Assembly: GCF_000091665.1 (NCBI RefSeq)
Contig: NC_000909.1
Location: 1,247,459 to 1,279,458 of the forward strand
Length of the DNA: 32,000 nucleotides
Direction of reading: 5' to 3'
Source: Methanocaldococcus jannaschii DSM 2661
GTDB lineage: Archaea; AGJL01; Methanococci; Methanococcales; Methanocaldococcaceae
Position numbers and translations under genes: made by a program. Positions 13,060 to 31,914 of this stretch are shown in pieces. Every line of letters starts with the position of its first letter. Positions within the stretch are counted from its first letter, which is position 1. Under the pieces are notes generated by a model. That model saw only the letters and a list, made by a program, of their open reading frames with translations. It was not told the origin of the DNA and searched no databases.

Positions 13060-14129
13060 TAAGTAAAGCTTATTACACTACAGAGATTCCAGAGGATAGA
13101 TTTGAAGCTCTGAGTTGTATTAAAGATAGTCAAAAACCTCTTAAAATTATATTACTTGGAGGAGTTGATAGTGGTAAAACAACATTAGCTACTTTTTTGG
13201 CAAATGAGCTTTTAAACTTAGGATTTAAAGTTGCTATAGTCGATAGTGATGTAGGGCAGAAGAGCATTTTACCTCCAGCAACTATAAGCTTAGCTTTCCC
13301 AGAAACAAATTTTAACAATTTATATGAAATTAAACCATACAAAAGTTATTTCGTTGGTTCAACAGCCCCAATACAATTTTTTGGAGAGATGATTACTGGA
13401 ACTAAATTATTGTGTGATTATGCTGAAGATAAGGCTGATATTATTATAGTTGATACCACTGGGCTGATATCTGGTTCTGGAGCTGATTTAAAGAGGATGA
13501 AAATAGAAATGATTAAGCCAGATATTATAATAGCATTGGAGAAAAGAAATGAACTTAAGAGTATTTTAAAGCCCTTTGAAAATAAAATCAGGGTTTTTTA
13601 CTTAAAAGTTTATGAAAATGCAAAATCATTCAGCAGAGAGGAAAGAAAAGAAATTAGAGCAGAGAAATGGAAAGAATACTTTAAAAACTCAAAAATTTAT
13701 AATATTGGTTTTAATGATGTAGTTATTGGTGGAACCAAGGTATTTCAAGGAGAGAAGATTTTAGAGGATGAGAAATACTTATTAGAATCACTTTTTAAGT
13801 GGAAGATACTTTATGGTAGCAAATGCGATGGAAGATATACAATAGTAAAAAGAGATTTGGTAAATATGCCAAGGCAAATAGATAAAAACATCCTATATTA
13901 CATTGAGCCAGAGCGGTTTAACAATTTAATAGTTGGATTGATTGATGAAGATAGCTTTTGCATTGGATTAGGTATTTTAAAAACTATTGATTTTGAGAAT
14001 GAAACATTAGAAATTTTAACTCCAATAAGTGAAGAGGATATTAAAAATATTAGAGAAATAAGGTTTGGAAGGATTAGAGTTGATGAAAATGGTGAGGAAC
14101 TTGGCTTATTAGATAGAGATTCTATATAA
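13056..14129 (+). CDS. Clp1/Grc3-like P-loop polynucleotide 5'-kinase family protein
   Basis: Walker A GGVDSGKTT and Walker B-like IIIVDTTG. ATGA overlap with the cbiB stop. The ATG at 13056 follows GGTGGA. Confidence 0.65.
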   Translation: MISKAYYTTEIPEDRFEALSCIKDSQKPLKIILLGGVDSGKTTLATFLANELLNLGFKVAIVDSDVGQKSILPPATISLAFPETNFNNLYEIKPYKSYFVGSTAPIQFFGEMITGTKLLCDYAEDKADIIIVDTTGLISGSGADLKRMKIEMIKPDIIIALEKRNELKSILKPFENKIRVFYLKVYENAKSFSREERKEIRAEKWKEYFKNSKIYNIGFNDVVIGGTKVFQGEKILEDEKYLLESLFKWKILYGSKCDGRYTIVKRDLVNMPRQIDKNILYYIEPERFNNLIVGLIDEDSFCIGLGILKTIDFENETLEILTPISEEDIKNIREIRFGRIRVDENGEELGLLDRDSI

Positions 14130-14142
14130 ATTGGGGATATTT

Positions 14143-14373
14143 ATGCTTAAAGAAATATTAAACAAAATCTTTTGGCATCCTGATTATAAGAGAGAAGATT
14201 TTGAAGTTGTTATATTACATAGAGGGGCTGAAGAAAATAAAAAAGCTATATCTTTAGATGATGTTGAGCTTAAAGGGAATTATTTAATATATTTTGACAC
14301 TTATATACCTCTACATAGAATCTTAGAGATTAGAAATAAAAAAACTGGAGAGATTTTATATAAAAAGAAGTAA
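14143..14373 (+). CDS. MJ1316/DUF504-family small protein (predicted RNA cyclic-end recognition domain)
   Basis: About 76 aa with the pattern ILNKIFWHP ... IPLHRILEI. Starts 13 nt after the Clp1-like stop, behind GGGGAT. Confidence 0.6.
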   Translation: MLKEILNKIFWHPDYKREDFEVVILHRGAEENKKAISLDDVELKGNYLIYFDTYIPLHRILEIRNKKTGEILYKKK

Positions 14374-15552
14374 CAAACCTGAAATTATAGCTAAGACACT
14401 TCCATATAAAAATGTCATTTCTGGGCTTATCTTCCACAAATATCCAGCTATTAAACTTGCAGGTAAGCTTGTTAATCCCACAACTGTATAAAACAGCCCT
14501 AAGGCTGTTGCTCTAATATCCTCTGACGATAAATCTGAGACATAAGCTTTCTGATTTCCAGCAAATAATGCATAGGCAATTCCATATAAAGCAAATAACA
14601 ATATTAAGCTTTTTTGAGATATAAAGTAGGCAAATCCTAAAGAGACAATACCATAAACTATATATCCAATAGTTAAAACACTCTTCCTCCCAATTTTATC
14701 AGATAAAATTCCAAATGGAATTGAAAATGTGGCGTAAAAGATGTTGTATAAAATATATAGAGCAATAGGGATTATAATAGCCATTTTTTCATCTACTATC
14801 ATTAAAAATTCCTGAGCTCTCAAAATATAAAACATATAGCTAAAGTTACTTAGGGTAAATATAGCTGAGATTAAAATAAAAAGCTTTAACTCTTTTGGTA
14901 AATTTTTAATCCCTACTCTAAATGTTATTTTATTATTAGAGGGTGAAGGTTTCTCTTTAACAAAATATAGAGGAATTAGGGTTAAAAATCCAATAACCGC
15001 AGCTATTAAAATTATTTGATTGAAACTATATTGAAGATATAGAATAAACAATAATGATAAGGTAGAGCCAAGTATAGCCCCAGCGGTATCAAAAGCTCTC
15101 TGTATTCCAAATCCTTTACCCAAAGTTTTAGGCATACTTTCAGATATTATCGCATCTCTTGGGGCTGTTCTTATCCCTTTGCCCATTCTTTCAAGGGAAG
15201 AAAATATAACAGCTCCTAACCAGCTTTTTGATAAACCTAAGAGTAGTTTAAACATTGAAGATGTTAAATAACCTAAAACAACAAAAATCTTCCTTTTCCT
15301 AACTTTATCTGAACAATAACCAATTAAAACCATTAAAATGTTTGAGATAAACTCTCTTAAACCTCCAACTAAACCTATTGATAAACTTCCTCCCCCAACG
15401 CTTGTAATAAGCATTGGTAAAATTGGCATTATCATCTCACTGCTCATGTCATTCAAAAAGCTTGTAAATCCCAATAAATAAACATTTTTAGATAATTCCC
15501 TATCATTCTCATTATTTTTTTGTAAATTTTGTTCTGCCACTTTTCTCACCAT
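14356..15552 (-). CDS. Major facilitator superfamily transporter
   Basis: About 12 predicted transmembrane segments, with MFS loop motifs SDKVRKRK and LSDKIGRK. Confidence 0.75.
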   Translation of the reverse strand: MVRKVAEQNLQKNNENDRELSKNVYLLGFTSFLNDMSSEMIMPILPMLITSVGGGSLSIGLVGGLREFISNILMVLIGYCSDKVRKRKIFVVLGYLTSSMFKLLLGLSKSWLGAVIFSSLERMGKGIRTAPRDAIISESMPKTLGKGFGIQRAFDTAGAILGSTLSLLFILYLQYSFNQIILIAAVIGFLTLIPLYFVKEKPSPSNNKITFRVGIKNLPKELKLFILISAIFTLSNFSYMFYILRAQEFLMIVDEKMAIIIPIALYILYNIFYATFSIPFGILSDKIGRKSVLTIGYIVYGIVSLGFAYFISQKSLILLFALYGIAYALFAGNQKAYVSDLSSEDIRATALGLFYTVVGLTSLPASLIAGYLWKISPEMTFLYGSVLAIISGLLLLFI

Positions 15553-15596
15553 AAAAAATAATAAAAATAAACTAAAAAATAAATATAAAAAGTTAA

Positions 15597-17384
15597 TTAA
15601 GCAGAAACTCTTCTTGCTAAGTATCCTCCTGCAAACCCTATTAATCCACCAATTATTGCAGAAATCATTATTCCAACATTATTTTCCTTAGTTGTAGTTT
15701 CTTCAATATTAACATTCTCGTTAGTGACTATATTAATTTCACTGCTGATATTTTCACTGATACTTTTATTCAACTCTTTTATTACATCTATATCCATTTG
15801 GGCGTAGTATGAGCTATATTTATAATACATAATTTTTGAAATGGTATCATTTAAACTATTTGCATATTCATAATAACCAAGGGCTGAGATTGGAGTTATT
15901 CCTAAGTTTTCAGCCAAGTTTATTTTGTTCCTTGCATATTTTTTGGAGTATTCAATATCTCCAAATATAACCAATGGAATCTCTGCCTTTACACAGGTAT
16001 CTATACTCTCAGCTATGGTTAGTAAATAGTCCCCATCCTTATATGCCTCTTTTGCTGATTCTAAATCATTTTCAAGGTCATCAGTAGGTAGATTGGGGAA
16101 TAATGTTTCTACATAAGTTAAGATTGTTTCAGCGTTGTCTAAATACTGCTGAGCTAATGATTTTAATTTAGCTTCATTTATTATCTTGCCATTGTTATCA
16201 TTTTCTTTTAAAGAAACCCACCATATTGCACTATCTCCCCTCAACTTCGCAAAGCTACCATACTTTATCGCTTCATCATAATTTCCTAAATAGTAAGATT
16301 TCCACGCATTATCTAAGAGTTTTTCCGCTTCAGCAATTCTTATCCTTCCTGCCAATATCTCTTCAAAGTTGTTAGTAGTTACATTTTTTGAATAAACAAT
16401 TTCTTTATCATGGCTAATTTTATTTTGAACCTCTGTTAAGAAAGTTTTAACATCTTCCTCTCCAGTTAAGTATTTTAGGGTGTGTTCAATAGTTTCAAGT
16501 TTAATTAATGCGTTAAACGCAGAGCATGTTGCAGAGTAGTATTTGTTTTTTAGATATTCATCATTAGCCTTCTCTAATAAGCTCTTTGAGGTAGTTAGTT
16601 CATTTAACAGGGCTTTTTGATATTCATATCCAACATAACTGTTACTTAACTCTTTAGAGAGGTTTTCATATTTTTCATTAGCTGTTTTTAAAACGTTTTC
16701 ACTTAACTCCTTCATTATGTCTTTATATTTCTCTTCGATAAGTGGATTTTCTGGATATTCCTTCATTATTATCTTTTTATTTGTGAAGTAAGGAATCGCT
16801 TCATATATACTTCCAACTTCTATAACCTTAATTCCCAATTTTTTACCAAATTCTACTGCATCAACTTTGTTGCCCTCTACTTCAACATACCTCTGCCCTT
16901 TTGGGATTAGCATAATTGTGCAGTTTGCTTTCTTAGCAGCTTCTATCTTTTCCAATATCCCTCCAACAGGTCCTATACTACCATCCGGATTTATCGTTCC
17001 AGTCATCATAACATGTTTATTTAAACTCCAGTTCATCAACTCACAGATGATTCCAATAGTCATCGTTCCCCCTGCTGATGGCCCCCCAACAACTGGAACA
17101 TCACTTCTTACTGTGATATATACATTATATTTACTCATATCTTTTCCAGTAACTTCCCCAGCAACTTTTGCAGCGATTCTTGCAGAACCTTGCATATCTA
17201 ATTCAGTTAGAGGCATAGTGTCCATAAATACATGTCCATCTCCCTTCGTAACATTAATTTGAATATTTATTGGAACCCCCACGTATCCTCTATCCGTTAA
17301 AGATACTGCTGGAGCTTTTATAATCACAGCAAAAGCAGAATTTAAAAGAAATGTTATTAATAGCAATGTCAATATTTTTTTCAT
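15597..17384 (-). CDS. Secreted, membrane-anchored Lon-type (S16) protease-domain protein with a long helical C-terminal region
   Basis: Signal-like N-terminus [19 protein letters not shown]. Lon catalytic context [10 protein letters not shown] with a downstream KIEAAKKA lysine. C-terminal transmembrane segment [20 protein letters not shown]. The ATG at 17384 follows GGAGGGAG. Confidence 0.7.
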
Positions 17385-17505
17385 ATTCTCCCTCCAAGTC
17401 TTCATAAGGATACATTATACTTCAGATAATACTTAAATAATTACTCAGAACAAATATAAAAAATAGTATGAAATTAAAGTATAAAGTAAAAGTAGTGTGA
17501 GTTAT

Positions 17506-18977: not shown

Positions 18978-19103
18978 ATGAATCTTGGAGCAATAGCAAT
19001 GTTTATATTTGGTGCTGTAATTTTGTGGGGAGGGGCAATTTATTTTTTATGGAGGTCAATTAGGAGTAAAAATAATAGAGATGATGAAAATAGTGAATCC
19101 TAA
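18978..19103 (+). CDS. 41-aa single-TM protein, a likely NSS-transporter small subunit (MetS-like); absent from the ORF track
   Basis: The ATG lies 2 nt after the transporter stop. Sequence MNLGAIAMFIFGAVILWGGAIYFLWRSIRSKNNRDDENSES has one transmembrane helix and a charged tail. Confidence 0.55.
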   Translation: MNLGAIAMFIFGAVILWGGAIYFLWRSIRSKNNRDDENSES

Positions 19104-19113
19104 TCATGCTTTA

Positions 19114-19122
19114 TTTTTTTTT
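19114..19122 (+). terminator. Oligo-T tract (T9), a candidate archaeal terminator for the transporter operon
   Basis: A run of nine T lies 11 nt after the small-ORF stop. Confidence 0.4.
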
Positions 19123-19587
19123 GCATCATTATATATTTATATGGATTCCATAGATATTATATTTTAGAATTTTACTATTAAGGTTTTTATGGGATTTTTA
19201 ATTTTGTTGTTTGGTTAATGGATTGTCTTGTTGAATATGTTTGGATTTTGAAAATAAGAGTATTTAGAATTTATTAATTAGTTCAAAGGATTTTTATTTA
19301 ATTTCTAAGGGTTAGCTGGTTTGATTGTTTAAAATATTTGAGTTTATTGAATTATTCAGATTTTTAAAAATTAGGATTAATTAGGTAAGTAAATAAGATT
19401 TCTCTAACAGACAAGTTAAATTTTTGAATTTAAGGAGATAAAAATACTCTGTTTTAGTAAAGAGATAAAATTTTAAATACTAAAAGGTTTATATTGTAAG
19501 ATGGTTATTTATCCTTAGAAAAATATGGTATAGAAAAGCTTAAATATTAAGAGTGATGAAGTATATTATGTTGTGAATGATTGCCCT
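19123..19587 (+). promoter_or_regulatory. CRISPR leader (AT-rich, non-coding) with a candidate TATA box at 19540-19547
   Basis: About 465 bp with no ORF lies directly upstream of the intact end of the array. TTAAATAT sits about 44 nt before repeat 1. There is also a GAGATAAAA..ATACT direct pair at 19435-19448 and 19462-19481. Confidence 0.55.
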
Positions 19588-20256
19588 GTTAAAATCAGAC
19601 CTCTTGGAGGATGGAAACTTATATTCACTTGTATAATTGTTTTCTATTGCATTCAAAGTTAAAATCAGACCTCTTGGAGGATGGAAACCGCATTCTTTTT
19701 GTATTTTTAACTCTTCTAAAATAGTTAAAATCAGACCTCTTGGAGGATGGAAACAAAGCTGAAATTACTGAGGAAGATACTGAGAAAGTTATAATTAAAA
19801 TAGTTAAAATCAGACCTCTTGGAGGATGGAAACGAAAAAGAGGGTAAATTAACAATCTATAATATTGAGGTTAAAATCAGACCTCTTGGAGGATGGAAAC
19901 GCATTCCATTACCTATATATATACCGTTTATATAGCCGTTTCCATTGTTAAAATCAGACCTCTTGGAGGATGGAAACTTTAATTCTTCAATGCTATTAAC
20001 AGTTTCATCCCTAGTTAAAATCAGACCTCTTGGAGGATGGAAACTGAGTATGGCCTATTGGGATGACAACATACTTAATTAGCCCATTTGTTAAAATCAG
20101 ACCTCTTGGAGGATGGAAATTAAACTCTTTTTTCTTATCTTCTGACAATTGTAAATGTTAAAATCAGACCTCTTGGAGGATGGAAATTATGTGGTTTTAG
20201 AGGATGGGAAGATTGTAGAAAAGGAGTTAAAATCAGACCTCTTGGAGGATGAAAAC
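19588..20256 (+). CRISPR. CRISPR array: 10 copies of the 31-nt repeat GTTAAAATCAGACCTCTTGGAGGATGGAAAC with 9 spacers
   Basis: Repeat starts are at 19588, 19658, 19724, 19803, 19870, 19947, 20014, 20090, 20157 and 20226. Spacer lengths are 39, 35, 48, 36, 46, 36, 45, 36 and 38 nt. Repeats 8-9 end in T instead of C and repeat 10 has a G-to-A change. The ATGGAAAC 3' end fits a + strand crRNA 5' handle. Confidence 0.97.
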
Positions 20257-20335
20257 TTTAGCATTCATTAAAATAAGACGTATTAGAGAATAAAAAAGCT
20301 TATAACTGGAATTTTTTATAAACAAAATAAAAATA

Positions 20336-20731
20336 TTATACCATTCCAAAAATCTCAAAATATTTTTTCTGTCTAACAACCATCACTGGGATGTTATTTT
20401 CCATTAATTTTTCCTTAAGTTCTTTATCGTTTGTTGCTACTATAACGTTTTCATTTTCCTTTGCATAATTTAAAATTGCTTCATCTGCATAATTGGCAGT
20501 GTAATCAACTAACTTATAGTTTTTTATCTTTGCAAGAGCTAAATTAACAGCCAATTTTTCTTTACCTTTTAAATCTCTACTTTTTAATAACCTTTCCAAC
20601 TCCTCTTTTATTGGAGATAAAATAACAATTTCAAATTTTGTATTTAAAGCCCTCTCTATCTCATAATCAAAGTTTATCTTATGCTTAAAAACGTAAATTA
20701 AAAAGTTGGTATCTGGAACTATTTTATACAT
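20336..20731 (-). CDS. PIN-domain nuclease (Fcf1/VapC-like)
   Basis: Acidic PIN residues occur in PDTNF (D7), IKEELE, ADEAIL and ATNDKELK. The ATG is preceded by GAGGTGA and lies 20 nt after the ago stop. Confidence 0.8.
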   Translation of the reverse strand: MYKIVPDTNFLIYVFKHKINFDYEIERALNTKFEIVILSPIKEELERLLKSRDLKGKEKLAVNLALAKIKNYKLVDYTANYADEAILNYAKENENVIVATNDKELKEKLMENNIPVMVVRQKKYFEIFGMV

Positions 20732-20751
20732 ATCTTAGATTCACCTCTTTT

Positions 20752-22893
20752 TTATATGAAATATAAGAATCCATGCTTTAGCAGTTCTTCATCTATTTTC
20801 CAATTTTTACCAAGTGCTTTAACAAATTTATCTGCATAATGTATTGGTGCTGGAATTCTAAGATATCTACCTTCTCCATATAGTGCAGAATAGTTCATTT
20901 TAGTTAAATCATATAACAATTGCATAATTGATTCATTAATTTTTAACCCTTCTTCATTTCCACAATTAAACCTTAACCAAGTTGATAATTTTACAGGATT
21001 TGAACCAAATGGAGTTTTGTGAGGTAAGAAGATACCATCATTTCCAAATACACTTCCAATTCTATAATCAGACGTAAAAACTTTATATTTATTGTTTTTT
21101 CTAATGCTAATTACTTCAATATTTGAATTTAGTTCTTTAGAGATTTCTTTTAGGTCATTTCTTTCAGAATTCTGAATAAAACCATCTCTTAAGAATAGAA
21201 TATTTTTATTTTCCATATCAATGTTTGCTTTATTTTCTAAATATTCTATTACATACGGCAGATGTAACCGTTCTCCTGGAGCTGGTGTCTCTATTGGCTG
21301 TATTCTTCTTATTTTACCTTCTGAGTCATATACCACAGTGCAACCTCCAACTCTATGATTACCAAAAATTCCCAATCCAGTGTCAAGTCCCATTATGTAA
21401 TCATAAGGTGTCTTAGAATCTAAGATAAAATATTTAATCCCCAATTTTCCCATAATTTGTATAAGTAAATTATTAGTCATATATCCTTTGTCATCTTTCC
21501 TCCAATTTTCCCATAATATATTTTGAGAGATTATTTTTAAATCAAAAAGTTGTTTTTTCAAAATTTCATAATAATCATTATCTTTGTATTTTTCTTTTCC
21601 AATAATTAACGCAAAACATATTTCATCATTAAATTCAGATTTTATTTCTTTTATAATTCCCCTAATGTCATCTGTAGAAAAATATTTCCATCTATTGGCA
21701 TAATTGAATTTTGGCAATTCTGTTTTATTAGCAATTTTGTTATAGTTTCTAAACATTTTATTTACTTTATCTTTAATAGCTTTTAATTCATCCTTGATTT
21801 CCTCATCAATAAGTATGTATGTTAATAAATTTTTGTTCCTTATAATTTCTGGGACATCATATGGGAGATATATTTTTGCATTTTGATTGTAAATCCACGT
21901 AAATAATGTATTTGTTGAATATATTTTGGTAGGATTTTTATTTACATCCTTCACGAGCAATGGAGTATTATTAAATTTCATAAATTCTAATTCTTTAGGT
22001 GTATTATCTATAAATCTAAGTTTTTTTGCTATTTCATTTATAATTTTTCCCTTATTTTCATTAGATAATCTCCAATAACTCTGCAATTCTTTAAGAATAT
22101 AGCTATCTAATTCATCCATATAAAATACAAGATTACAAAATTGTGGAGCAAATGGTTCTAAGATTTCTTCACAATACATAATGGGTTGATTATAATCAAT
22201 CTCCCCAAAAGTAGATTTTACCATATCTTCAGACCATTTGTAATATTTAATTATGTGACTCATTATTTCCTCTATTTTTTGAGGGTTTGGAGCATCAACC
22301 AGTGAAATTGTATATCTTACCTTTGGATTAGGTTTAAAGATAATCTTTTTCCCAACATACTCCTCTAATAGTGCTTTATCTCTATTAACAAAATCCCATA
22401 AGTGTTTTGTAATAGACGCTGTATGTCTAAAGTTTAATATAAGATAATAATCCCCATCATGTTTTTTAACTTCATACTCACAATATGACTCAACTTTTAT
22501 ATTTTCCACTACTTTGTGTTTTCTAATGTTTTTTATAATTCTTGATAATTCTGGCTCTATTTTATGGACAGATTTAAGATATCCCCTAACAAGTTTTTCA
22601 GCTATTTCTGGTTTTACATATTCTAATTTTAATGATTTAATATATTCAATGTCTATTGGGATTTCGTTATTTCCATCTTTGTATTTCAATACTTTATTAT
22701 CAACTTTGTATGGTAAAACAAAACTTTTATCTTTTTTATTAATTATCATGCCACCATAAAAATTAACAAATCTATAAAAATTAAATGCTTCATTAACAAA
22801 ACTTTTAATTCTATAGAAATGCACTTCTTTAGGAATAAATTCTTCTTTTATTTTGTATGCATTTATTTTATATGTAACTTTATTTAAAACCAT
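20752..22893 (-). CDS. ago: Long prokaryotic Argonaute (PIWI-domain nuclease), 713 aa
   Basis: PIWI catalytic tetrad counted in the translation: D504 (GLDTG), E541 (PGERL), D570 (FLRDG) and D688 (HYADKF). The length and sequence match my memory of MjAgo. A GAGGAGGA RBS precedes the ATG. Confidence 0.92.
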   Translation of the reverse strand: MVLNKVTYKINAYKIKEEFIPKEVHFYRIKSFVNEAFNFYRFVNFYGGMIINKKDKSFVLPYKVDNKVLKYKDGNNEIPIDIEYIKSLKLEYVKPEIAEKLVRGYLKSVHKIEPELSRIIKNIRKHKVVENIKVESYCEYEVKKHDGDYYLILNFRHTASITKHLWDFVNRDKALLEEYVGKKIIFKPNPKVRYTISLVDAPNPQKIEEIMSHIIKYYKWSEDMVKSTFGEIDYNQPIMYCEEILEPFAPQFCNLVFYMDELDSYILKELQSYWRLSNENKGKIINEIAKKLRFIDNTPKELEFMKFNNTPLLVKDVNKNPTKIYSTNTLFTWIYNQNAKIYLPYDVPEIIRNKNLLTYILIDEEIKDELKAIKDKVNKMFRNYNKIANKTELPKFNYANRWKYFSTDDIRGIIKEIKSEFNDEICFALIIGKEKYKDNDYYEILKKQLFDLKIISQNILWENWRKDDKGYMTNNLLIQIMGKLGIKYFILDSKTPYDYIMGLDTGLGIFGNHRVGGCTVVYDSEGKIRRIQPIETPAPGERLHLPYVIEYLENKANIDMENKNILFLRDGFIQNSERNDLKEISKELNSNIEVISIRKNNKYKVFTSDYRIGSVFGNDGIFLPHKTPFGSNPVKLSTWLRFNCGNEEGLKINESIMQLLYDLTKMNYSALYGEGRYLRIPAPIHYADKFVKALGKNWKIDEELLKHGFLYFI

Positions 22894-22911
22894 ATTATAT
22901 CCTCCTCATAA

Positions 22912-25900
22912 CTATCCATTAATCTTAACTTTTGAAACATTCCCATCTTTTTTAACATTGATTATCACATCTGCTACATCTTCAAGCTCTCTGTGGTGGG
23001 TTATAATTATCATCTGTGGAATGCTCTTAACCTTCCTAAAGATTTCAGCTAACTTTGCCCTTCTATTTTCATCTAAATATACAGTTGGTTCATCCAATAT
23101 AATGCACTCAACCCTATTTCCAATTAAAGCGTTAGCTATGGCTAATCTTAAAGAGAGAGCTACCGCTATCTGCTCTCCACCGCTTAAATTGTCAATGGTT
23201 AAAACTCCATTTGGAGCATGAACTCTTACTTCAAAATCTTTAGTGAGTTCTACAAAGCTATAAGGCAAGTCAAACTCACTAAATGCTTCATTTAAATATT
23301 TTTGGATTAATGGAACATATTTTTCTCTTAAATATGCTTGAAATCCATTTCTACCAAATATTCTCCTAACCTTGTCTAAATATTCAACAAACTTCGTTAA
23401 TTTCTCTTTTTCTTTCTCTAAATTAGACATTTCTTTTAATCTTGCTTTTAAACTTTCAACATCTTTTTTTAAATATTCAATTCCTGTCTCAATTTCTGTT
23501 TTTTGTTCTCTTACGTTATCAAGTTCTTGTCTCTTATTTTCATAGAGCTCTTTTATTTTTTTATGTTCTTCTTCATTGTAGTTTATTTCATCAAGTTTTT
23601 GGTTAATGTAGGATATTCTTTCTTCTATATCATTAATTTCCTTATTAACCTCTAAAATTTTGTTGTTTAGGTAAATTTCAATATCTTCTTTATTATACTT
23701 CCTCTTAATGTTATCTATTGCTAAAATCTTAGAGTTGCATATATTATAAATCTCTTCAAGCCCATCTTTAATATTTTTAAGCTCTTCTAATTTTTCAGTT
23801 AGACCTAAATATTCCTTATATTTATCAAACTTTAATGACCTCCTATTCTCAATTTCTATAAGTTCTTTTTCCTTATTTTTAAGTTCATTTAATTTGTCTT
23901 TTAATCTGTTTATTTCTCTTTCATCCTCTCTTAATTTGTTCAACTCTTCTCTACATTTTTCTTTATTCCATCCACTTACGATATTTTCAATTTCCTTAAT
24001 TCTATTTCTAATACCTTCCTCATCTACACTATTTAAATAGCTAACAGCTGATAAGTATTGGTTATAAAAGTTTTTAAATTTGTTCAGCTGGCTTTTAATG
24101 TCTTCTAATATCTCATCCACTGGCTTTCCGTTAATTACATAGTTGGATATTTTTTTATTGATTTCATCTAACTGCTCTTTATAATTCTTTAATTTTAATT
24201 CTAATTCTTCAATCTGACTTTGTTTTTCAAGATATAAGGTCTTTAGTGTCTTAAGATTTTCTTCTTTATCAATTTCTTTCTTTAATTTCTCTATATCTTT
24301 TTCAATCTCTCTAATTTTTTTATTTATTTCCTCCAATTCAGTATATTTATTGTTTAGCTGGGTTTTATGTTGATTTATTAATTCCATCTTTTTATTTTCA
24401 TCTATTGGTGTTTTACATAGTGGGCATTTTCCTTCAACTTCTTTAAGTTCATCTAAAATTTTTTTCAGCCTTTTAATTTCACTGTTAATTTCCCCAAGTT
24501 TTTTGTTTAGTTCTATCTTTTCTTTTTGTAGATTTTCAAGAACTTTCTTTTTTTCCTCTATCTCTTTTAATGAATTTTCAATACTTTCAATGTCAATATT
24601 TTTTGTTTCTTCTAAAAGTTTATTAATTCTTGTTTCTAAATCGTTAATATTTTTTTCAATGGATTTTTTCTCCTGAAGCAATGTTATATACTCTAAAGTT
24701 AGTTTATTGTATTCTACAGCCTTTTCTTCTAATTCTAAATACTTCTCATAGTATTCTTTGCACTCTTCACATATTCTTTTATATTTTTCAATTTTTTCAA
24801 TCTCTTCATTTAGATTTTTAAGTTCTTCAAGCAAATCTTTAATAGTTTCCACTCTTTCAATTTCATCTTTTATTTTATTTAATAGAGTATCTAAATTATC
24901 AATATCATCTCTATACTTACTTTTGTTGATGAATTCTTTCAATTTTTCAATGTCTCCTTTTATTATCTCCAACTGCTTTGTTAATTTTAAATAATCTTCA
25001 TAATGACTCTTTAATTCTCTTAATCTGCTCTCAATTTTCCTAATCTCATCAACTAATGATTTATATTTTTCATATTCATCTTTATGTCTATTTAGAGTTT
25101 CTCTTGCTTCAACAACAGTATTTAAATCATATTCTAAAATTTTAAGCTCTTGATTTTTAAGCTCTAAAGCTCTCTTCCTTTCTTCAAGTTTGTTTATGAA
25201 TTTTTCATACAACAACTTTTTATTTTCCCATTCATTAAATAATTTTTCAATATCTTCAAATTCCTTTTTTATTTTATTTAGTTTATCATTAATTTCCATT
25301 AATTTTTTATTTTTTTCTTCTAATTGGCTCATTTTATTTTTTAATTCTTTTTCATAATTTTCTTTGTAATTCAACTCTCCTTCAATTCTTTCTAATCTTT
25401 TTTCATATTCCTTAACAATCTCCCCCATTTTTTGATAGCATTTTTCAAACTCATCTATTCCCAAAAGTTTCGCAACTGTTTCCAATTTTTCGGAGGGTTT
25501 TAAACTCAAAAATTTAGCTATCTCCCCCTGTTTAATATATATGGAGTTTAAGAACATATTTCTATCAACGCCTAAGATTTCATTTACTGCTTTATTAACT
25601 GCACTAATTGTAGTAGCGTAAGGCTTTCCATTCTTATAGAGCTTAGCTCCCCCTCTTCCAGAATCATATTCTCTGATAATTTTGTAGTTGTTTCCATTGA
25701 CTTCAAAATCCAATTCAACATAAACGGATTTTTTTCCTTTGGTTATTATTGTGTCGTAATTAAAATTACTGCCTGCCCCAAACAAGGCAAAGAACACTGC
25801 TTCAAAGATAGATGATTTTCCACTTCCATTCTCTCCAATAATTGCAACAATCCCTTTTTCAAACTTAATTCTTGAATTCACATGACTTTTAAAGTTATTC

Positions 25901-25929
25901 ATCCTTATTTCTTTTAGTATCATACTCAT
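22912..25929 (-). CDS. rad50: DNA double-strand break repair ATPase Rad50
   Basis: Walker A GENGSGKSS, a long coiled coil with the CPLC zinc hook, signature LSGGEQ, Walker B IILDEPT and an ITHH H-loop. Confidence 0.95.
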   Translation of the reverse strand: MSMILKEIRMNNFKSHVNSRIKFEKGIVAIIGENGSGKSSIFEAVFFALFGAGSNFNYDTIITKGKKSVYVELDFEVNGNNYKIIREYDSGRGGAKLYKNGKPYATTISAVNKAVNEILGVDRNMFLNSIYIKQGEIAKFLSLKPSEKLETVAKLLGIDEFEKCYQKMGEIVKEYEKRLERIEGELNYKENYEKELKNKMSQLEEKNKKLMEINDKLNKIKKEFEDIEKLFNEWENKKLLYEKFINKLEERKRALELKNQELKILEYDLNTVVEARETLNRHKDEYEKYKSLVDEIRKIESRLRELKSHYEDYLKLTKQLEIIKGDIEKLKEFINKSKYRDDIDNLDTLLNKIKDEIERVETIKDLLEELKNLNEEIEKIEKYKRICEECKEYYEKYLELEEKAVEYNKLTLEYITLLQEKKSIEKNINDLETRINKLLEETKNIDIESIENSLKEIEEKKKVLENLQKEKIELNKKLGEINSEIKRLKKILDELKEVEGKCPLCKTPIDENKKMELINQHKTQLNNKYTELEEINKKIREIEKDIEKLKKEIDKEENLKTLKTLYLEKQSQIEELELKLKNYKEQLDEINKKISNYVINGKPVDEILEDIKSQLNKFKNFYNQYLSAVSYLNSVDEEGIRNRIKEIENIVSGWNKEKCREELNKLREDEREINRLKDKLNELKNKEKELIEIENRRSLKFDKYKEYLGLTEKLEELKNIKDGLEEIYNICNSKILAIDNIKRKYNKEDIEIYLNNKILEVNKEINDIEERISYINQKLDEINYNEEEHKKIKELYENKRQELDNVREQKTEIETGIEYLKKDVESLKARLKEMSNLEKEKEKLTKFVEYLDKVRRIFGRNGFQAYLREKYVPLIQKYLNEAFSEFDLPYSFVELTKDFEVRVHAPNGVLTIDNLSGGEQIAVALSLRLAIANALIGNRVECIILDEPTVYLDENRRAKLAEIFRKVKSIPQMIIITHHRELEDVADVIINVKKDGNVSKVKING

Positions 25930-27026
25930 CCCCTAAATTTAGTGTTGTAATATTCATCCAATAACTCTTTCCAATTTTCATTATTTAATAGAGCTTTATA
26001 TAAACTTAAAACTAAATCCCCATCAATTCCCTGCCTATTTGCATAATCCACTAAAAGCTCTTTAATGTTTAGTGACTCAATATCAACATTATCTGGCATG
26101 TCTATAAATTCGTCATCTACTATAATAGCTTTATTAATTAGAATTTTATCCTTTAAAGTGTCAAACCATGGTTTAAATTCTCTCTTAATTTTTCCAAAAA
26201 CAACTGGCTTATTTTTACATCTTTCAATTTTATTCACTGCCTCATTAAAAGATTTCTTATCTTTAATATTTACCTCTACAAATTCTCTGCATTCAATATC
26301 AATTTTTTCTATATCAGAGATATCCAAATCATTTCCACTAAAATCAACTAAGTAAAATCCTTTTCCTTCTTTTTTATAGTCCTCATATTCATTTCTATAA
26401 ATAATTTCTGTTGAACCACTGTAAGCTAAAATTCCATCATTAAACCTCTCTAAAATCCTCTTGTGAATATGTCCCAACGCATAGTAGGAAAATTTTGGTA
26501 AATCAAAATGTTCAAGTTCATAGTCAAGTGGAATATATGGATTTATTCCCTGATGAAGCATCAATATCTTTTTTTTATAGTTTTTAGCTTCTGATTCAAA
26601 ATTTTTTAATTTATCTAACATCTCCTCTCTTTTGCTCTTTTTGTGATAATAAGTCCCACAGATAAATATCTCTTCCCCATTTACATTTATAACATCTTTT
26701 CCATCTAAAATTTTAACGTAATCTTTTAGTAAGGCTAATGGAGATTCCTCCCCTAACCTTCTTGGCATTTCATGGTTTCCTGCAACAATATAAACCTTTA
26801 TATTATTTTCATGTAATTTTTTAAACGCCTGCATAGCTATTCTTAAAGCTTTTACTGGAGGTCTCAAATCGTTAAATAAATCACCACTATGTAAAACAAC
26901 ATCTGGCTTTATCTCTAAAATCTTTTTTATACATAATTTAAATGAGTCGTAAATATCTTTTTCCCTATCATCCAAGTTATACTGTCTATAACCTAAGTGA
27001 TTATCAGCTATATGAACGAACATCAT
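25926..27026 (-). CDS. mre11: DNA double-strand break repair nuclease Mre11
   Basis: Phosphoesterase motifs HIADNHLG, HSGDLF, GNHE, LHQG and GHIH. The stop overlaps the rad50 ATG (ATGA at 25926-25929). Confidence 0.95.
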   Translation of the reverse strand: MMFVHIADNHLGYRQYNLDDREKDIYDSFKLCIKKILEIKPDVVLHSGDLFNDLRPPVKALRIAMQAFKKLHENNIKVYIVAGNHEMPRRLGEESPLALLKDYVKILDGKDVINVNGEEIFICGTYYHKKSKREEMLDKLKNFESEAKNYKKKILMLHQGINPYIPLDYELEHFDLPKFSYYALGHIHKRILERFNDGILAYSGSTEIIYRNEYEDYKKEGKGFYLVDFSGNDLDISDIEKIDIECREFVEVNIKDKKSFNEAVNKIERCKNKPVVFGKIKREFKPWFDTLKDKILINKAIIVDDEFIDMPDNVDIESLNIKELLVDYANRQGIDGDLVLSLYKALLNNENWKELLDEYYNTKFRG

Positions 27027-27120
27027 ATACTATCCCTCAAATTTTTATTTTGTGATAGAATAATTAATGCATAAAATTTAAATATGTTAAACCTACAGTT
27101 TTTATATTTATGGTGATAAC

Positions 27121-29617: not shown

Positions 29618-30355
29618 ATGGTGGTAAAATTGGTTAATAACGAACTTAAAATTTTATCGGGAAAATTAAGAGATATATTTAGGGAAATTTATAATAAAAT
29701 AAAAAATGATGAGAATATTAACGATAGAAATTTGGACGATAAGGTTTTAAGTTTATTAAAAGACTATACAATCTCTGAAGAAAACTTAAAAATTAAATTT
29801 TCTGAACCAAAGGATGAAATATATTCCTATGAAGGTAGAAGGACACCTTATGATTTATTATGCTATGGAATAATAAATGGAAAGAATTTTTTAATATTCA
29901 TAAACAATAAATTTGGTGATTTAAAAAGTAATACAAGAAACGATGTAACAACATACAATAACCTCTTACGTTTATATTTGGGCATAAAACGGCAGAGATT
30001 AACGTCAGAAATAACCATAAATGGAGAATTGGTCTATAATAGAATTTCAGGTAATGAAATTGTATCTTATGGAATTTTTGTTGTTGATAAGTATAGAAGA
30101 GGATACAAATTTTTCTTATTAGAAGAGATTAAGGACGATTTTTATGTTAATCCAAGAAATAACATGTTTCAGATAAGGTATAGCCCAAATCTTGGTGACC
30201 CAATAGATTACTTTGCTTTTGTTAAAAAACTTATAGATGCAATTTTAGAATCTTTAGAAAAGTCATTAAATTCAATAAAAACAGAAATTCTTGTCTTGAA
30301 CTCAATAAAAATCCAACTGATTAATATTAAAGAGGGCAAACATGGAGAAGATTAG
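29618..30355 (+). CDS. Hypothetical protein, candidate type II restriction endonuclease partner of the downstream methyltransferase
   Basis: No family recognised by eye. The call rests on a 14-nt overlap with the methyltransferase start. A possible degenerate PD-(D/E)XK-like pattern is PYD...FINNK. Confidence 0.4.
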   Translation: MVVKLVNNELKILSGKLRDIFREIYNKIKNDENINDRNLDDKVLSLLKDYTISEENLKIKFSEPKDEIYSYEGRRTPYDLLCYGIINGKNFLIFINNKFGDLKSNTRNDVTTYNNLLRLYLGIKRQRLTSEITINGELVYNRISGNEIVSYGIFVVDKYRRGYKFFLLEEIKDDFYVNPRNNMFQIRYSPNLGDPIDYFAFVKKLIDAILESLEKSLNSIKTEILVLNSIKIQLINIKEGKHGED

Positions 30356-31914
30356 CTTTGTTGAAACTCCAAAAGAAATAGCTGAATTAATGATAAATCT
30401 TTCTACAATCCCAAAAAATGGATTAGTGTTAGACACTGGATGCGGAAAAGGAATATTTTTAGAGGTATTAAGAGAATTTGGATACAAAAATTGTGTGGGT
30501 ATTGAAATAGATAAAGATTTATACAACCACTGCAAGGCAAAATTTGATGAATTTGAGATAATTTTAGGAGATTATTTAAGCTATAACTTTAAAGAAAAAT
30601 TTGATTTAATTATTGGAAATCCTCCCTATGCCCATTTCAACAGTCTTCCAGAATTTATAAAAAAAGAAGTAAAACGGATTATAGGCACAAGTGAGGGGGA
30701 CATTTATTATGCTTTCATTATAAAATCAATAAATCTTTTAAAAGATGGTGGAGAGTTGATTTATATTGTTCCATATCACTTTTTTTATAACACATATGCA
30801 AAAATTGTAAGAGACAACATTCTAAAACATGGAAAATTGGAAATAATTATTGATTTGGATGAAGTTAGGCTATTTAAAAATGAAAATCCTGAAACAATAA
30901 TATTTAAGTTTAAAAAAGGAGAATTTAACCACAAATCTGAAAAAATTGATGTTATTAGAATTATCTCAAAAAAAGTTAAATTAAAAGAGATAAAAGAAAA
31001 AGCTATTAATGTGTTAAATGCAAAAAAATCAAACGATATTTTTGAATACATGGAAATTCCTCATTACACTACACCAGAAACCTTGGTCTACCTTTTTTAC
31101 AAAAATCCCAGATTTTCCTCATGTGTTATTAAAGGATATAGCAAAAGTTGGAGTGGGCTTAGTTTCTGGATTTGATGAGGCATTTTTATTAAATGAAGAT
31201 GACATCTCAAAGCTAAATGAAGATGAAAAACAACTTATAAAAAATTTTGTTAAGGCAAAAAACTGTAAAAGGTTTGTAGTTGAGGGATTTGTTCAATATA
31301 TATTAATTGAAGACAACCTAAAAGATGAAGAAATATTTAAAACCAAATATCCAAACATATATAAAAAATTGTTGAAGTTTAAAGACAGAATGGAGAATAG
31401 ATACCTTCCAAAAAACAAAAAATGGTTTAATTGGCAGGCATTGAGAAACTATAAATTTTTAATAAAAAATCTAAATAAAAAACGAATATATGTTCCAACT
31501 TTAGACAGAAAACCATATAATAGGTTTAGTTTAGGAGATGATGAACTATTACCTTCAGGAGACGTTATATTTATCCAACCCTACAACGATGATGACATAT
31601 ACTTTTTGTTAGGATATTTGAACAGCTCATTTTTTAGAAATTATTATCTTGCAAATGGTGGAAGAAGAGGAGGGAGAGTGGCATTTACACAAAAGTTGTT
31701 AGAGAATGCAAAAATTCCCACGTTCTCAGATGAAGTTAAGGAGAAAATAAAAAATATAGTCAAGGATATTATCTACAACTTAAAAAATGGGAAAGATATT
31801 GAAAACTTAGAAAGACAAATTGATTATATTATAGTTTCAGCAATAAATAACAATCAATTTAAAGGTTATCAAACAACACTAAAAAACTTATTAAAACCAA
31901 AACTTAAAGGATGA
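30342..31914 (+). pseudogene. N6-adenine DNA methyltransferase (gamma-type motif order, TaqI/Eco57I-like C-terminal TRD) interrupted by a +1 frameshift near 31078-31098
   Basis: Motif I LDTGCGKGIF and motif IV NPPYAHF lie in frame 30342-31175. The TRD-like part (DIAKVGVGLVSGFDEAFLL ... GGRRGGRVAFTQKLLENAKIP) lies in frame 31018-31914. Deleting one A at 31078-31080 gives the continuous sequence ...HYTTPEPWSTFFTKIPDF... Confidence 0.75.

What the first reader, a model, noticed from the sequence alone, without database searches (positions are those of the whole stretch)
20336..27026. mre11-rad50-Argonaute-PIN packed as one apparent transcription unit
Seen in the sequence:
- Four co-directional genes on the minus strand.
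- The mre11 stop overlaps the rad50 ATG (ATGA at 25926-25929).
- The rad50 stop (22912-22914) is followed by only 18 nt, carrying GAGGAGGA, before the ago ATG at 22893.
- The ago stop (20752-20754) is followed by 20 nt, carrying GAGGTGA, before the PIN ATG at 20731.
- None of these gaps can hold a BRE/TATA promoter. T-rich terminator-like tracts appear only after PIN (20283-20333).

Established knowledge: in many thermophilic archaea mre11-rad50 are clustered with the herA helicase and the nurA nuclease. Bacterial pAgo guide acquisition has been linked to double-strand-break processing (RecBCD with Clostridium butyricum Ago). As I recall, MjAgo was reported to chop DNA without a guide.

Inference: no herA or nurA is visible here, and the position downstream of rad50 is taken by two nucleases. 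Mre11-Rad50 end processing may therefore be coupled to Argonaute, either for guide generation at DNA ends or for degradation of invader DNA, with PIN as an accessory nuclease. To my knowledge such a four-gene module has not been described as a unit.
Basis: partly seen in the sequence, partly recalled or inferred. Interest (0 to 1): 0.78.

Follow-up and report, generated by a model that had tools for sequence, protein, structure and literature searches.

The report
Argonaute cassette inside an Mre11-Rad50 operon
The well-studied Argonaute nuclease of Methanocaldococcus jannaschii sits tightly packed between the DNA-break-repair genes mre11-rad50 and a conserved PIN RNase gene, but relatives show it is an optional cassette dropped into a variable defence-gene hot spot, so a working partnership with the repair genes is possible but unproven.

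Summary
Four co-directional minus-strand genes, mre11, rad50, ago and PIN, are joined by a 4-nt overlap and by 18-nt and 20-nt gaps that carry Shine-Dalgarno motifs. The only T6 run lies after PIN. The window is M. jannaschii, and the ago product matches the crystallised MjAgo over its full length.

Comparative data change the reading:
- mre11-rad50-PIN is the backbone of the array.
- Ago lies between rad50 and PIN in three Methanocaldococcus lineages and is missing from the same slot in close relatives of each.
- All ago-bearing loci share one derived PIN-start junction. All ago-less loci share another, which M. lauensis also has. This points to a single insertion later spread by recombination.
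- In M. lauensis the syntenic locus carries a foreign-type herA-mre11-rad50-nurA operon, so nurA fills the slot that ago fills here.
- Two other relatives carry restriction-modification genes at this locus, and CRISPR arrays abut PIN in several.
- PIN is a conserved Fcf1/Utp24-like RNase found across thermophilic Methanococcales, often far from rad50.
- Ago homologues at 43-44% identity sit in a bacterial genome and on a plasmid-like contig, with no Mre11 or Rad50 nearby.

Co-transcription is likely but untested. Functional coupling of Ago with Mre11-Rad50 is untested. Interest is moderate.

The parts
27027..27120 (-). Intergenic region between the divergent MobB-like gene and mre11. It is the likely promoter for the four-gene unit. 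A TATA-like ATATTTAAATTTTA lies at 27085-27072 and a Shine-Dalgarno GAGGGA at 27038-27033.
   Evidence: The sequence is shown. GTTTAACATATTTAAATTTTA is identical upstream of M. fervens mre11, and a shorter piece, ATTTAAATTTTAT, recurs in L004. Promoter function is inferred, not shown.
25926..27026 (-). mre11 (366 aa)
   Evidence: ORF. Pfam gives Metallophos plus the Mre11_C Rad50-binding domain. The protein matches PDB 3AV0 over its full length at E = 5e-246.
22912..25929 (-). rad50 (1005 aa). Its ATG overlaps the mre11 stop (ATGA at 25929-25926).
   Evidence: Pfam gives AAA_23, SMC_N, Rad50_zn_hook and SbcC_Walker_B. NCBIfam matches Rad50 models.
22894..22911 (-). 18-nt rad50-ago spacer with Shine-Dalgarno GAGGAGGA at 22907-22900. 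This is the left edge of the ago cassette.
   Evidence: The equivalent spacers are 26 nt in M. fervens and 13 nt in L022, each with a G-rich Shine-Dalgarno motif.
20752..22893 (-). ago (MjAgo, 713 aa), a long catalytically active prokaryotic Argonaute. It is an accessory cassette that is present or absent among close relatives.
   Evidence: Pfam. Full-length match to PDB 5G5T/5G5S. PADLOC pAgo models match. Presence/absence polymorphism is shown.
20732..20751 (-). 20-nt ago-PIN spacer with Shine-Dalgarno GAGGTGA at 20747-20741. This is the right edge of the ago cassette. The junction is nearly identical in DNA sequence in all three ago-bearing lineages.
   Evidence: Ago-less loci instead have GGTGAT..ATATAYAAAATAG and no ATG at this position; most can start at the GTG within GGTGAT.
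20336..20731 (-). PIN_9 / Fcf1-Utp24-like PIN-domain RNase (131 aa). The acidic residues D7, E44, D83 and D102 are retained.
   Evidence: Pfam PIN_9 at 1.9e-19 and Fcf1 at 1e-5. PDB hits are 1O4W, Utp24 and P. horikoshii Fcf1. Orthologues at 49-95% identity occur across thermophilic Methanococcales.
20257..20335 (.). T/A-rich spacer between the PIN stop and the last CRISPR repeat. It is the likely terminator for the operon, with T5 at 20333-20329 and T6 at 20297-20292 on the coding strand. It may also terminate the convergent CRISPR transcript.
   Evidence: Termination is inferred from oligo-T tracts only.
19589..20256 (+). CRISPR array of 10 copies of GTTAAAATCAGACCTCTTGGAGGATGGAAAC. The degenerate repeat lies next to PIN. 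The leader is most likely the AT-rich non-coding stretch at about 19020-19588.
   Evidence: Rfam CRISPR-DR39 gives 10 hits. Transcription on the + strand is inferred; Rfam places the model on the - strand.

Best explanation
These are four known genes of M. jannaschii: the canonical Mre11-Rad50 break-repair pair, the characterised DNA-guided DNA endonuclease MjAgo, and a conserved Fcf1/Utp24-like PIN RNase.

Transcription (inferred). The genes are most likely transcribed as one unit. The promoter would lie in the 94-nt region upstream of mre11, and termination would occur at the oligo-T tract after PIN. Each downstream gene has its own Shine-Dalgarno site.

Origin (shown by comparison). The unit is an evolutionary composite.
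- The older array is mre11-rad50 followed directly by PIN.
- Ago is a single-gene cassette inserted once, precisely between the rad50 stop and the PIN start.
- The cassette has since passed between Methanocaldococcus lineages, probably by homologous recombination through the conserved flanks. Each of three clades now has ago-plus and ago-minus alleles.
- The site belongs to a variable hot spot that also collects CRISPR arrays and restriction-modification genes, and that holds nurA in M. lauensis.

Function (inferred). Ago uses the mre11 promoter and is therefore made together with the break-repair machinery. It acts as a stand-alone defence nuclease. Cooperation with Mre11-Rad50 is plausible by analogy with CbAgo and RecBCD, for example DNA ends as the source of guides or clearance of chopped invader DNA. 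Neither partner requires it. PIN is a housekeeping RNase that happens to lie downstream.
For: Packing and signals.

Identities.

Same gene order elsewhere:
- M. fervens: Ago 68% identical, gaps of 26 and 20 nt.
- Vent contigs L022-L024: Ago 69% identical.

Ago-less mre11-rad50-PIN:
- L004 and L029: Rad50 84%, Mre11 91%, PIN 95% identical; the rad50 TAA lies 1 nt from a GTG start of PIN.
- L030.
- Methanocaldococcus sp. 28A.

Allele distribution and exchange:
- Trees of the Rad50 C-terminus and of PIN give three clades, each with ago-plus and ago-minus members.
- Ago of M. fervens and L022 is 86% identical, against 72% for their Rad50 C-termini.
- Their ago DNA is 82-95% identical, against 53-83% in the rad50 3' end.

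Junction evidence:
- All ago-plus loci share the junction GAGGTGAATCTA..ATGTATAAAATAG.
- All ago-minus loci, including the M. lauensis nurA-PIN junction, share GGTGAT..ATATAYAAAATAG.
- The ago-minus form is therefore ancestral and the insertion happened once.

Hot spot:
- M. lauensis has MobB | herA-mre11-rad50-nurA-PIN-AP_endonuc-AcnX-CobD-CLP1 with the same flanking genes. Its Mre11 and Rad50 are only 32% and 28% identical to those of the window.
- In L031 a methylase and an unknown gene replace mre11 and the N-terminal part of rad50. In L034 a C5-methylase gene truncates PIN.
- CRISPR arrays follow PIN in M. jannaschii, L004, L029 and L022.
- A type II restriction-modification system lies at 29618-31914 in the window.

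PIN is a conserved gene of the order and lies elsewhere in M. infernus, Methanotorris igneus and L033.

Distant Ago homologues lack Mre11 and Rad50 neighbours: a bacterial MAG and a ParA/Rep3 plasmid-like contig.
Against: No transcript data could be consulted, so co-transcription is inferred from spacing only. The M. jannaschii TSS study and the MjAgo papers are not held in the library.

Some findings fit selection for linkage to Mre11-Rad50 as well as they fit inheritance of one insertion:
- All three known alleles of this Ago clade sit in exactly this slot and keep tight spacing despite about 30% protein divergence.
- In M. lauensis the slot holds nurA, the dedicated partner nuclease of Mre11-Rad50.

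Only about a dozen loci were sampled, several on short metagenome contigs. The trees are quick neighbour-joining trees on 100-260 residues.

The housekeeping role of PIN rests on homology to Utp24/Fcf1, not on any archaeal experiment.
Confidence: 0.6

Rival explanations
1. Dedicated functional module. Mre11-Rad50 and MjAgo work together. Mre11-Rad50 processes DNA ends into 5'-phosphorylated small DNAs that load Ago, or clears Ago-chopped invader DNA. Co-transcription would be selected to keep their levels matched, and PIN would be an accessory nuclease.
For: - The tight, Shine-Dalgarno-linked order is conserved in three ago-bearing lineages that differ by about 30% in Ago.
- No convincing TATA box lies within about 180 nt upstream of ago.
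- NurA occupies the same slot in M. lauensis.
- CbAgo guide biogenesis depends on double-strand-break processing by RecBCD, and SbcCD-made breaks feed it (bioRxiv 10.1101/2020.03.01.971358).
Against: - Mre11-rad50-PIN is intact without ago in close relatives of each ago-bearing lineage.
- The three ago-plus loci trace to one insertion, so they count as a single observation.
- Ago homologues at 43-44% identity have no Mre11 or Rad50 neighbours.
- PIN is an Fcf1-like RNase conserved independently of ago.
- The published pAgo neighbourhood analyses that were checked never mention Mre11, Rad50 or SbcCD in their main text.
Confidence: 0.2
2. Ago substitutes for NurA. In the lineages whose Mre11-Rad50 operon lacks herA and nurA, the RNase H-fold PIWI nuclease of Ago would take over NurA-like end resection next to Rad50.
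For: - Ago and nurA occupy the same rad50-to-PIN slot in syntenic loci.
- NurA and Ago/PIWI both belong to the endonuclease-type branch of the RNase H-like superfamily (PMC3985635).
- No herA or nurA lies in the window.
Against: - Ago-less relatives keep the same type of Mre11-Rad50 with nothing in the slot.
- NurA needs the HerA helicase for activity (PMC3326311), and no herA is linked here.
- The M. lauensis operon is a foreign-type replacement (28-32% identity), so the shared slot reflects locus turnover rather than gene-for-gene replacement.
- MjAgo is documented as a guide-directed endonuclease.
Confidence: 0.05
3. Not one transcription unit. Ago and/or PIN are transcribed from promoters buried in the upstream coding sequence, so the packing reflects genome compaction rather than co-expression.
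For: - The genome is AT-rich, with TATA-like octamers at about 5 per kb on each strand.
- TTCATATA at 20760-20753 ends 22 nt before the PIN ATG, the right distance for a leaderless PIN transcript. The spacing rule is from PMC2699501.
- In sp. 28A a 127-nt gap with TTTATATATT precedes PIN, so PIN can have its own promoter.
- Six T5 runs lie inside ago, against one each in mre11 and rad50.
Against: - Gaps of 18 and 20 nt with well-placed Shine-Dalgarno motifs are typical of polycistronic genes.
- The TATA-like string before PIN is forced by the conserved Ago C-terminal codons LYFI-stop.
- The only candidate upstream of ago is a 7/8 match 181 nt away.
Confidence: 0.15

Closest known systems
herA-mre11-rad50-nurA operon of thermophilic archaea
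   Same: It is a co-directional, tightly packed DNA-end-processing operon with a nuclease gene immediately downstream of rad50. In M. lauensis this canonical operon lies at the syntenic locus, between the same MobB-like and PIN genes.
   Different: No herA lies upstream here; mre11 faces a divergent MobB-like gene. The gene after rad50 is ago, not nurA. The Mre11 and Rad50 of the window are the Methanococcales type, only 32% and 28% identical to the M. lauensis proteins.
Stand-alone long-A prokaryotic Argonaute defence nucleases (MjAgo, PfAgo, TtAgo, CbAgo)
   Same: The ago product is MjAgo itself, with a full-length match to PDB 5G5T. It shows the patchy, horizontally transferred distribution typical of pAgos. 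The link between double-strand-break processing and guide supply is established for CbAgo with RecBCD.
   Different: Here the gene appears to have no promoter of its own and is embedded inside a break-repair operon. The pAgo neighbourhood papers I could read do not mention such an arrangement in their main text.
pAgo operons with dedicated partner genes (short pAgo with APAZ-SIR2/TIR/nuclease; pAgo next to cas1-cas2)
   Same: An Argonaute sits in a predicted operon with nuclease genes.
   Different: In those systems the partner co-occurs with the pAgo across many lineages. Here the neighbours (mre11, rad50, PIN) are older residents that persist without ago.
Defence islands / variable integration hot spots between conserved core genes
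   Same: Conserved flanks carry changing cargo: ago, nurA plus a foreign operon, restriction-modification genes, or CRISPR arrays. Presence/absence alleles occur within clades.
   Different: The cargo is a single gene inserted in frame with the operon's translation signals. It is not a multi-gene island with integrase or repeat boundaries, and no flanking repeats or ago remnants were found.
Fcf1/Utp24 PIN endonucleases (eukaryotic small-subunit processome) and the archaeal homologues AF0591 (1O4W) and P. horikoshii Fcf1 (5YZ4)
   Same: The alignment covers the full length and the four acidic residues D7, E44, D83 and D102 are conserved. The size is about 130 aa.
   Different: No archaeal substrate is known. 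Some database names call orthologues VapC toxins, but no antitoxin gene precedes it here.

Membership tests
Long catalytically active pAgo (MjAgo) | N-PAZ-MID-PIWI architecture | tested here: met
   Pfam gives MjAgo_N-like (22-90), Ago_PAZ_arc (163-258) and Piwi (426-699).
Long catalytically active pAgo (MjAgo) | Sequence equals the crystallised, biochemically active MjAgo, which implies the catalytic tetrad | tested here: met
   Residues 1-713 align to 5G5T_A 1-713 at 1617.6 bits. A 100%-identical cluster representative, P0001, was found.
Mre11-Rad50 complex | Mre11 phosphoesterase domain plus C-terminal Rad50-binding domain | tested here: met
   Metallophos 1-189 and Mre11_C 321-364. Matches PDB 3AV0.
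Mre11-Rad50 complex | Rad50 ABC ATPase head split by a coiled coil with a zinc hook | tested here: met
   AAA_23/SMC_N at the N-terminus, Rad50_zn_hook at 481-532 and SbcC_Walker_B at 899-965.
herA-mre11-rad50-nurA operon | herA adjacent to and co-directional with mre11-rad50 | tested here: not met
   The gene upstream of mre11 is a divergent MobB/FeS gene. No HerA-type domain was found in any window ORF scanned.
herA-mre11-rad50-nurA operon | nurA adjacent to rad50 | tested here: not met
   The gene after rad50 is ago. NurA (PF09376) appears in that slot only in M. lauensis L025 and in L032.
pAgo system with dedicated partner genes | Partner genes co-occur with the pAgo across lineages and are absent without it | tested here: not met
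   Mre11-rad50-PIN occurs without ago in L004, L029, L030 and L018. Ago homologues P0005 and P0006 lack these neighbours.
Single transcription unit (operon) | Co-directional genes, gaps too short for a promoter, own ribosome-binding sites, terminator only at the end | tested here: met
Single transcription unit (operon) | One transcript spanning all four genes | not testable with these tools
   No RNA data are available, and the M. jannaschii TSS paper is not held.
Defence island / variable hot spot | Different, mostly defence-related cargo between the same conserved flanks in related genomes | tested here: met
   The cargo is ago, nothing, nurA plus a foreign operon, restriction-modification genes, or CRISPR arrays.
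Fcf1/Utp24-like PIN RNase | PIN fold signature with four conserved acidic residues | tested here: met
   PIN_9 at 1.9e-19 and Fcf1 at 1e-5. The alignment to Utp24 keeps D7, E44, D83 and D102.
Fcf1/Utp24-like PIN RNase | Pre-rRNA cleavage activity | not testable with these tools
   Inferred from homology only.
VapBC toxin-antitoxin pair (name given to some PIN orthologues) | Small antitoxin gene immediately upstream of the PIN toxin | tested here: not met
   The upstream gene is ago (20-nt gap), or rad50 or nurA in relatives.

The most novel reading that the evidence does not exclude
In some Methanocaldococcus lineages a DNA-guided Argonaute has been recruited into the Mre11-Rad50 operon, in the very slot that nurA occupies in the canonical archaeal end-resection operon. 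It would work with Mre11-Rad50 at DNA ends. Mre11-Rad50 processing of broken or Ago-chopped DNA would supply MjAgo with guides, or hand over invader DNA for destruction. This would be an archaeal counterpart of the RecBCD-CbAgo partnership that is hard-wired by co-transcription.
Probability: 0.2. Interest if true: 0.75.

Novelty: new variant of a known kind. Interest (0 to 1): 0.45.

Why it matters
How prokaryotic Argonautes obtain DNA guides in their native hosts is still open. The question is largely unexplored in archaea, where RecBCD is absent and Mre11-Rad50 (with HerA-NurA) handles DNA ends.

MjAgo is a structural and biochemical model Argonaute. Its likely expression from the mre11-rad50 promoter, in the slot where a sister species keeps nurA, gives a concrete and cheap hypothesis to test.

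Natural ago-plus and ago-minus alleles on otherwise near-identical backgrounds provide ready-made controls.

If the link is only positional, the locus still shows two things clearly. A defence gene can be spliced seamlessly into a housekeeping operon. It can then be traded between species by recombination through conserved flanks.

Tried and rejected
- **Genome-collection scan with Rad50.** The patterns came from the lysine/glutamate-rich coiled coil. Only two relevant loci were returned, and neither M. jannaschii nor M. fervens. The survey was rebuilt from Mre11 and PIN homologues and their contigs.
- **Literature not held.** Zander 2017, Smollett 2017 (TSS map) and Constantinesco 2002/2004 could not be read. 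Published TSS and operon data, and the location of herA and nurA in M. jannaschii, could therefore not be checked.
- **TATA-box scan, TWTATATA at 7/8 or better.** It was uninformative, with about 5 hits per kb on each strand in this AT-rich DNA. It was not used as evidence for or against internal promoters, beyond noting candidates.
- **Search for ago remnants in the ago-less rad50-PIN spacers.** Only chance matches of 9-14 nt were found.
- **Possible target-site duplication around ago.** GATAGTTAT after rad50 resembles GGTGATAGTTAT in L004. It is too short and diverged to call.
- **Ago relatives in viral contigs and PLSDB plasmids.** None were found.
- **Look-up of the M. bathoardescens PIN locus.** Not on record.
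- **PIN as a VapC toxin or CARF-PIN defence effector.** Rejected. There is no antitoxin, the PADLOC hit is weak (3.8e-5, PIN domain only), and the best matches are Fcf1/Utp24.
- **Rad50 as a Lamassu LmuB-like defence ATPase (PADLOC hits).** Rejected. It has the zinc hook, pairs with an Mre11 that carries the Rad50-binding domain, and that Mre11 matches the one crystallised with Rad50 in 3AV0.
- **Bacterial sigma-70/hairpin terminator scanner.** Not used, because it does not apply to archaea.

Full report
**1. Observation**

The ORF table shows four co-directional minus-strand genes:
- PIN, 20336-20731
- ago, 20752-22893
- rad50, 22912-25929
- mre11, 25926-27026

- ATGA at 25929-25926 overlaps the mre11 stop with the rad50 start.
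- The rad50 TAG (22914-22912) is followed by 18 nt carrying GAGGAGGA (22907-22900) and then the ago ATG at 22893.
- The ago TAA (20754-20752) is followed by 20 nt carrying GAGGTGA (20747-20741) and then the PIN ATG at 20731.

Both motifs are complementary to the archaeal 16S rRNA 3' end; this rests on established knowledge. On the coding strand there is no T6 or longer run inside the four genes. A T5 and a T6 run follow the PIN stop.

**2. Identities**

Pfam confirms all four genes.
- Mre11 has the phosphoesterase domain plus the C-terminal Rad50-binding domain.
- Rad50 has its zinc hook.
- Ago has the archaeal N-terminal, PAZ and Piwi domains.
- PIN belongs to PIN_9/Fcf1.

The Ago protein matches PDB 5G5T over residues 1-713, and Mre11 matches 3AV0. 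The window is therefore Methanocaldococcus jannaschii, and ago encodes the characterised MjAgo.

The PIN protein's best solved relatives are A. fulgidus AF0591 (1O4W), eukaryotic Utp24/Fcf1 and P. horikoshii Fcf1. The alignment keeps the four acidic residues D7, E44, D83 and D102.

The other window ORFs of at least 100 aa that were scanned (20 of them) showed no HerA or NurA domain. The gene upstream of mre11 is a divergent MobB/Fe-S gene.

**3. Is the gene order conserved?**

Yes, but narrowly.
- M. fervens has MobB | mre11-rad50-ago-PIN. Its Ago is 68% identical, and the gaps are 26 and 20 nt.
- Hydrothermal-vent contigs L022-L024 carry a third Ago allele (69% identical) between a rad50 3' end and PIN.

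The same backbone also exists without ago.
- In a Methanocaldococcus metagenome-assembled genome (L004, the same contig as L028, plus L029), Mre11 is 91%, Rad50 84% and PIN 95% identical to the window. The rad50 TAA there lies 1 nt from a GTG start of PIN.
- L030 and Methanocaldococcus sp. 28A (L018) are also mre11-rad50-PIN.

Further away, the arrangement breaks up.
- A Methanococci metagenome-assembled genome ends the unit at rad50.
- Methanotorris igneus has HycI-mre11-rad50 followed by an RPA-like gene.
- In M. villosus and M. indicus, mre11 is not followed by rad50.

**4. Direction of change**

Neighbour-joining trees of the Rad50 C-terminus and of PIN resolve three clades. Each contains both ago-plus and ago-minus loci:

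| Clade | ago-plus | ago-minus |
|---|---|---|
| A | M. jannaschii | L004, L029 |
| B | M. fervens | L030, sp. 28A |
| C | L022 | L031, L034 |

The M. fervens and L022 Ago proteins are 86% identical, while their Rad50 C-termini are 72% identical. At the DNA level their ago genes are 82-95% identical, against 53-83% in the adjoining rad50 end.

The PIN-start junction is diagnostic.
- Every ago-plus locus reads GAGGTGAATCTA..ATGTATAAAATAG, with an ATG start.
- Every ago-minus locus reads GGTGAT..ATATAYAAAATAG, with a GTG start in most. This includes M. lauensis, where nurA precedes PIN.

I infer that the ago-minus junction is ancestral and that ago was inserted once. The cassette with its junctions would then have moved among clades, most simply by homologous recombination through the conserved flanks. 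No ago remnants remain in the ago-minus spacers.

**5. The locus is a hot spot**

- In M. lauensis the syntenic site has the same flanking genes: MobB on one side, and PIN-AP_endonuc_2-AcnX-CobD-CLP1-MFS-Lon on the other. It carries herA-mre11-rad50-nurA-PIN.
- Its Mre11 and Rad50 are only 32% and 28% identical to those of the window. A foreign-type operon has therefore replaced the Methanococcales-type pair, and nurA sits where ago sits in M. jannaschii. Metagenome contig L032 repeats this arrangement.
- In L031 an N6/N4 DNA methylase and an unknown 374-aa gene replace mre11 and the N-terminal three quarters of rad50.
- In L034 a C5 DNA-methylase gene truncates PIN.
- CRISPR arrays begin within about 80 nt of the PIN stop in M. 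jannaschii (10 repeats at 19589-20256). Arrays also follow PIN in L004, L029 and L022.
- The window also holds a type II restriction-modification system at 29618-31914.

**6. PIN is not an Ago accessory**

Orthologues at 49-95% identity occur in M. fervens, sp. 28A, sp. 16A, M. bathoardescens, M. lauensis, M. infernus, M. villosus, M. indicus, Methanotorris igneus, Methanothermococcus and Methanofervidicoccus. Where both proteins could be compared, PIN is better conserved than Mre11: 79% against 60% in M. villosus, 71% against 51% in M. indicus and 62% against 52% in Methanotorris igneus.

PIN also sits away from rad50 in several genomes.
- In M. infernus it precedes type III RAMP genes.
- In Methanotorris igneus it lies among housekeeping genes.
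- In L033 it sits beside IMP dehydrogenase.

No antitoxin gene precedes it, so the VapC label that some databases give its orthologues does not fit.

**7. Ago beyond the genus**

The word-indexed protein search found only 13 homologues. Two had enough surrounding DNA to read.
- A 43%-identical Ago lies in a bacterial metagenome-assembled genome among housekeeping genes.
- A 44%-identical Ago lies on a 6.7-kb ParA/Rep3 plasmid-like contig.

Neither has Mre11 or Rad50 nearby. No relatives were found in viral contigs or PLSDB plasmids.

**8. Transcription**

The 18-nt and 20-nt gaps cannot hold a BRE/TATA promoter plus leader. M. jannaschii promoters place the TATA box 23 +/- 2 nt upstream of the start site (PMC2699501).

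Upstream of mre11, GTTTAACATATTTAAATTTTA is identical in M. fervens, and a shorter piece, ATTTAAATTTTAT, recurs in L004. This is the likely promoter.

Internal promoters cannot be excluded.
- TATA-like octamers occur at about 5 per kb on each strand.
- TTCATATA ends 22 nt before the PIN ATG, although that string is dictated by the conserved Ago C-terminal codons.

Co-transcription is therefore a strong sequence-based inference, not a demonstrated fact.

**9. Mechanism**

Shown by the data:
- the gene identities
- the tight packing of the four genes
- the presence/absence polymorphism of ago
- the single-origin junction
- the turnover of cargo at the locus

Inferred:
- one transcript
- expression of ago from the mre11 promoter
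- spread of the cassette by recombination
- a housekeeping role for PIN

By analogy only, Mre11-Rad50 end processing may feed or assist MjAgo. CbAgo takes its guides from double-strand breaks processed by RecBCD, including breaks made by SbcCD. NurA and PIWI both belong to the RNase H-like superfamily, but they fall in different clades, and NurA depends on HerA. I therefore rate direct substitution of Ago for NurA as unlikely.

**10. Novelty and verdict**

I found no paper in the searchable library that links MjAgo, MJ1321 or pAgos generally to an adjacent mre11-rad50. The pAgo neighbourhood papers I read do not mention it in their main text.

The arrangement is real and apparently undescribed, but it is a lineage-restricted, optional insertion rather than a conserved four-gene module.

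I rate it a new variant of a known kind: a stand-alone pAgo spliced into a break-repair operon at a defence hot spot. Interest is moderate at 0.45. I give about a 20% chance that a genuine Mre11-Rad50-Ago partnership underlies it.

Noticed in passing
window 19589-20256 (leader probably 19020-19588): A CRISPR array of 10 repeats (GTTAAAATCAGACCTCTTGGAGGATGGAAAC) with spacers of about 36-49 nt ends only about 80 nt from the PIN stop. The repeat nearest PIN is degenerate, so the array probably runs on the + strand, convergent with the operon. Rfam places its model on the - strand. CRISPR arrays also follow PIN in L004, L029 and L022, but not in M. fervens or sp. 28A.
   Followed up: partly
L025 (M. 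lauensis) 894-8399: A canonical herA-mre11-rad50-nurA operon sits at the locus syntenic with the window, between the MobB-like gene and PIN. Its Mre11 and Rad50 are only 32% and 28% identical to those of M. jannaschii, which indicates replacement of the whole operon by a foreign type. L032 is a 95-98% identical metagenome copy.
   Followed up: partly
window 8946-17405 versus L025 8421-15906: The block AP_endonuc_2, AcnX, CobD, CLP1_P, MFS, Lon_C follows PIN directly and co-directionally in M. lauensis. In M. jannaschii the block is inverted. There it is separated from PIN by an SNF-family transporter gene and the CRISPR array, and it carries an extra radical-SAM gene. A rearrangement breakpoint therefore lies just downstream of PIN.
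   Followed up: no
L031 6910-9984; L034 357-1577: In L031 an N6/N4 DNA methylase and an unknown 374-aa protein replace mre11 and the N-terminal part of rad50, leaving a 278-aa Rad50 C-terminal ORF in front of PIN. In L034 a C5 DNA methylase, split into two ORFs, is fused to and truncates PIN after residue 97.
   Followed up: partly
window 29618-31914: A type II restriction-modification system. The restriction enzyme ORF is at 29618-30355 (PADLOC REase_II, E = 4e-167). The methyltransferase is split into two overlapping ORFs, 30342-31175 and 31018-31914, which match the N-terminal and C-terminal halves of one model. This suggests a frameshift or a two-part gene.
   Followed up: no
window 4696-5573: An overlapping HEPN (4696-5154) and nucleotidyltransferase (5130-5573) gene pair on the minus strand. 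It looks like a typical HEPN/MNT toxin-antitoxin-like module.
   Followed up: no
L035 / L036 (vent metagenome contigs, about 6.5 kb): An Ago 44% identical to MjAgo lies between ParA and Rep3-family replication genes. This looks like a small plasmid carrying a long pAgo.
   Followed up: no
L026 (M. infernus) 8001-16393: The PIN orthologue is followed directly by a run of RAMP-domain genes (type III CRISPR-Cas effector-like). This is another defence module abutting this PIN gene.
   Followed up: no
window 21154-20655 versus L001 and L022: The last 400 nt or so of ago and the first 80 nt or so of PIN are 90-93% identical in DNA between M. jannaschii and M. fervens (86-94% with L022). The rest of ago is only 57-83% identical. 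This is either a recombination tract or very strong constraint on the PIWI C-terminus.
   Followed up: partly
window 22912-27026: T5 runs on the coding strand are scarce in mre11 and rad50 (2 in 4.1 kb). Ago has 6 in 2.1 kb, and the window averages 4.5 per kb. This may reflect avoidance of premature archaeal termination in the older genes.
   Followed up: no
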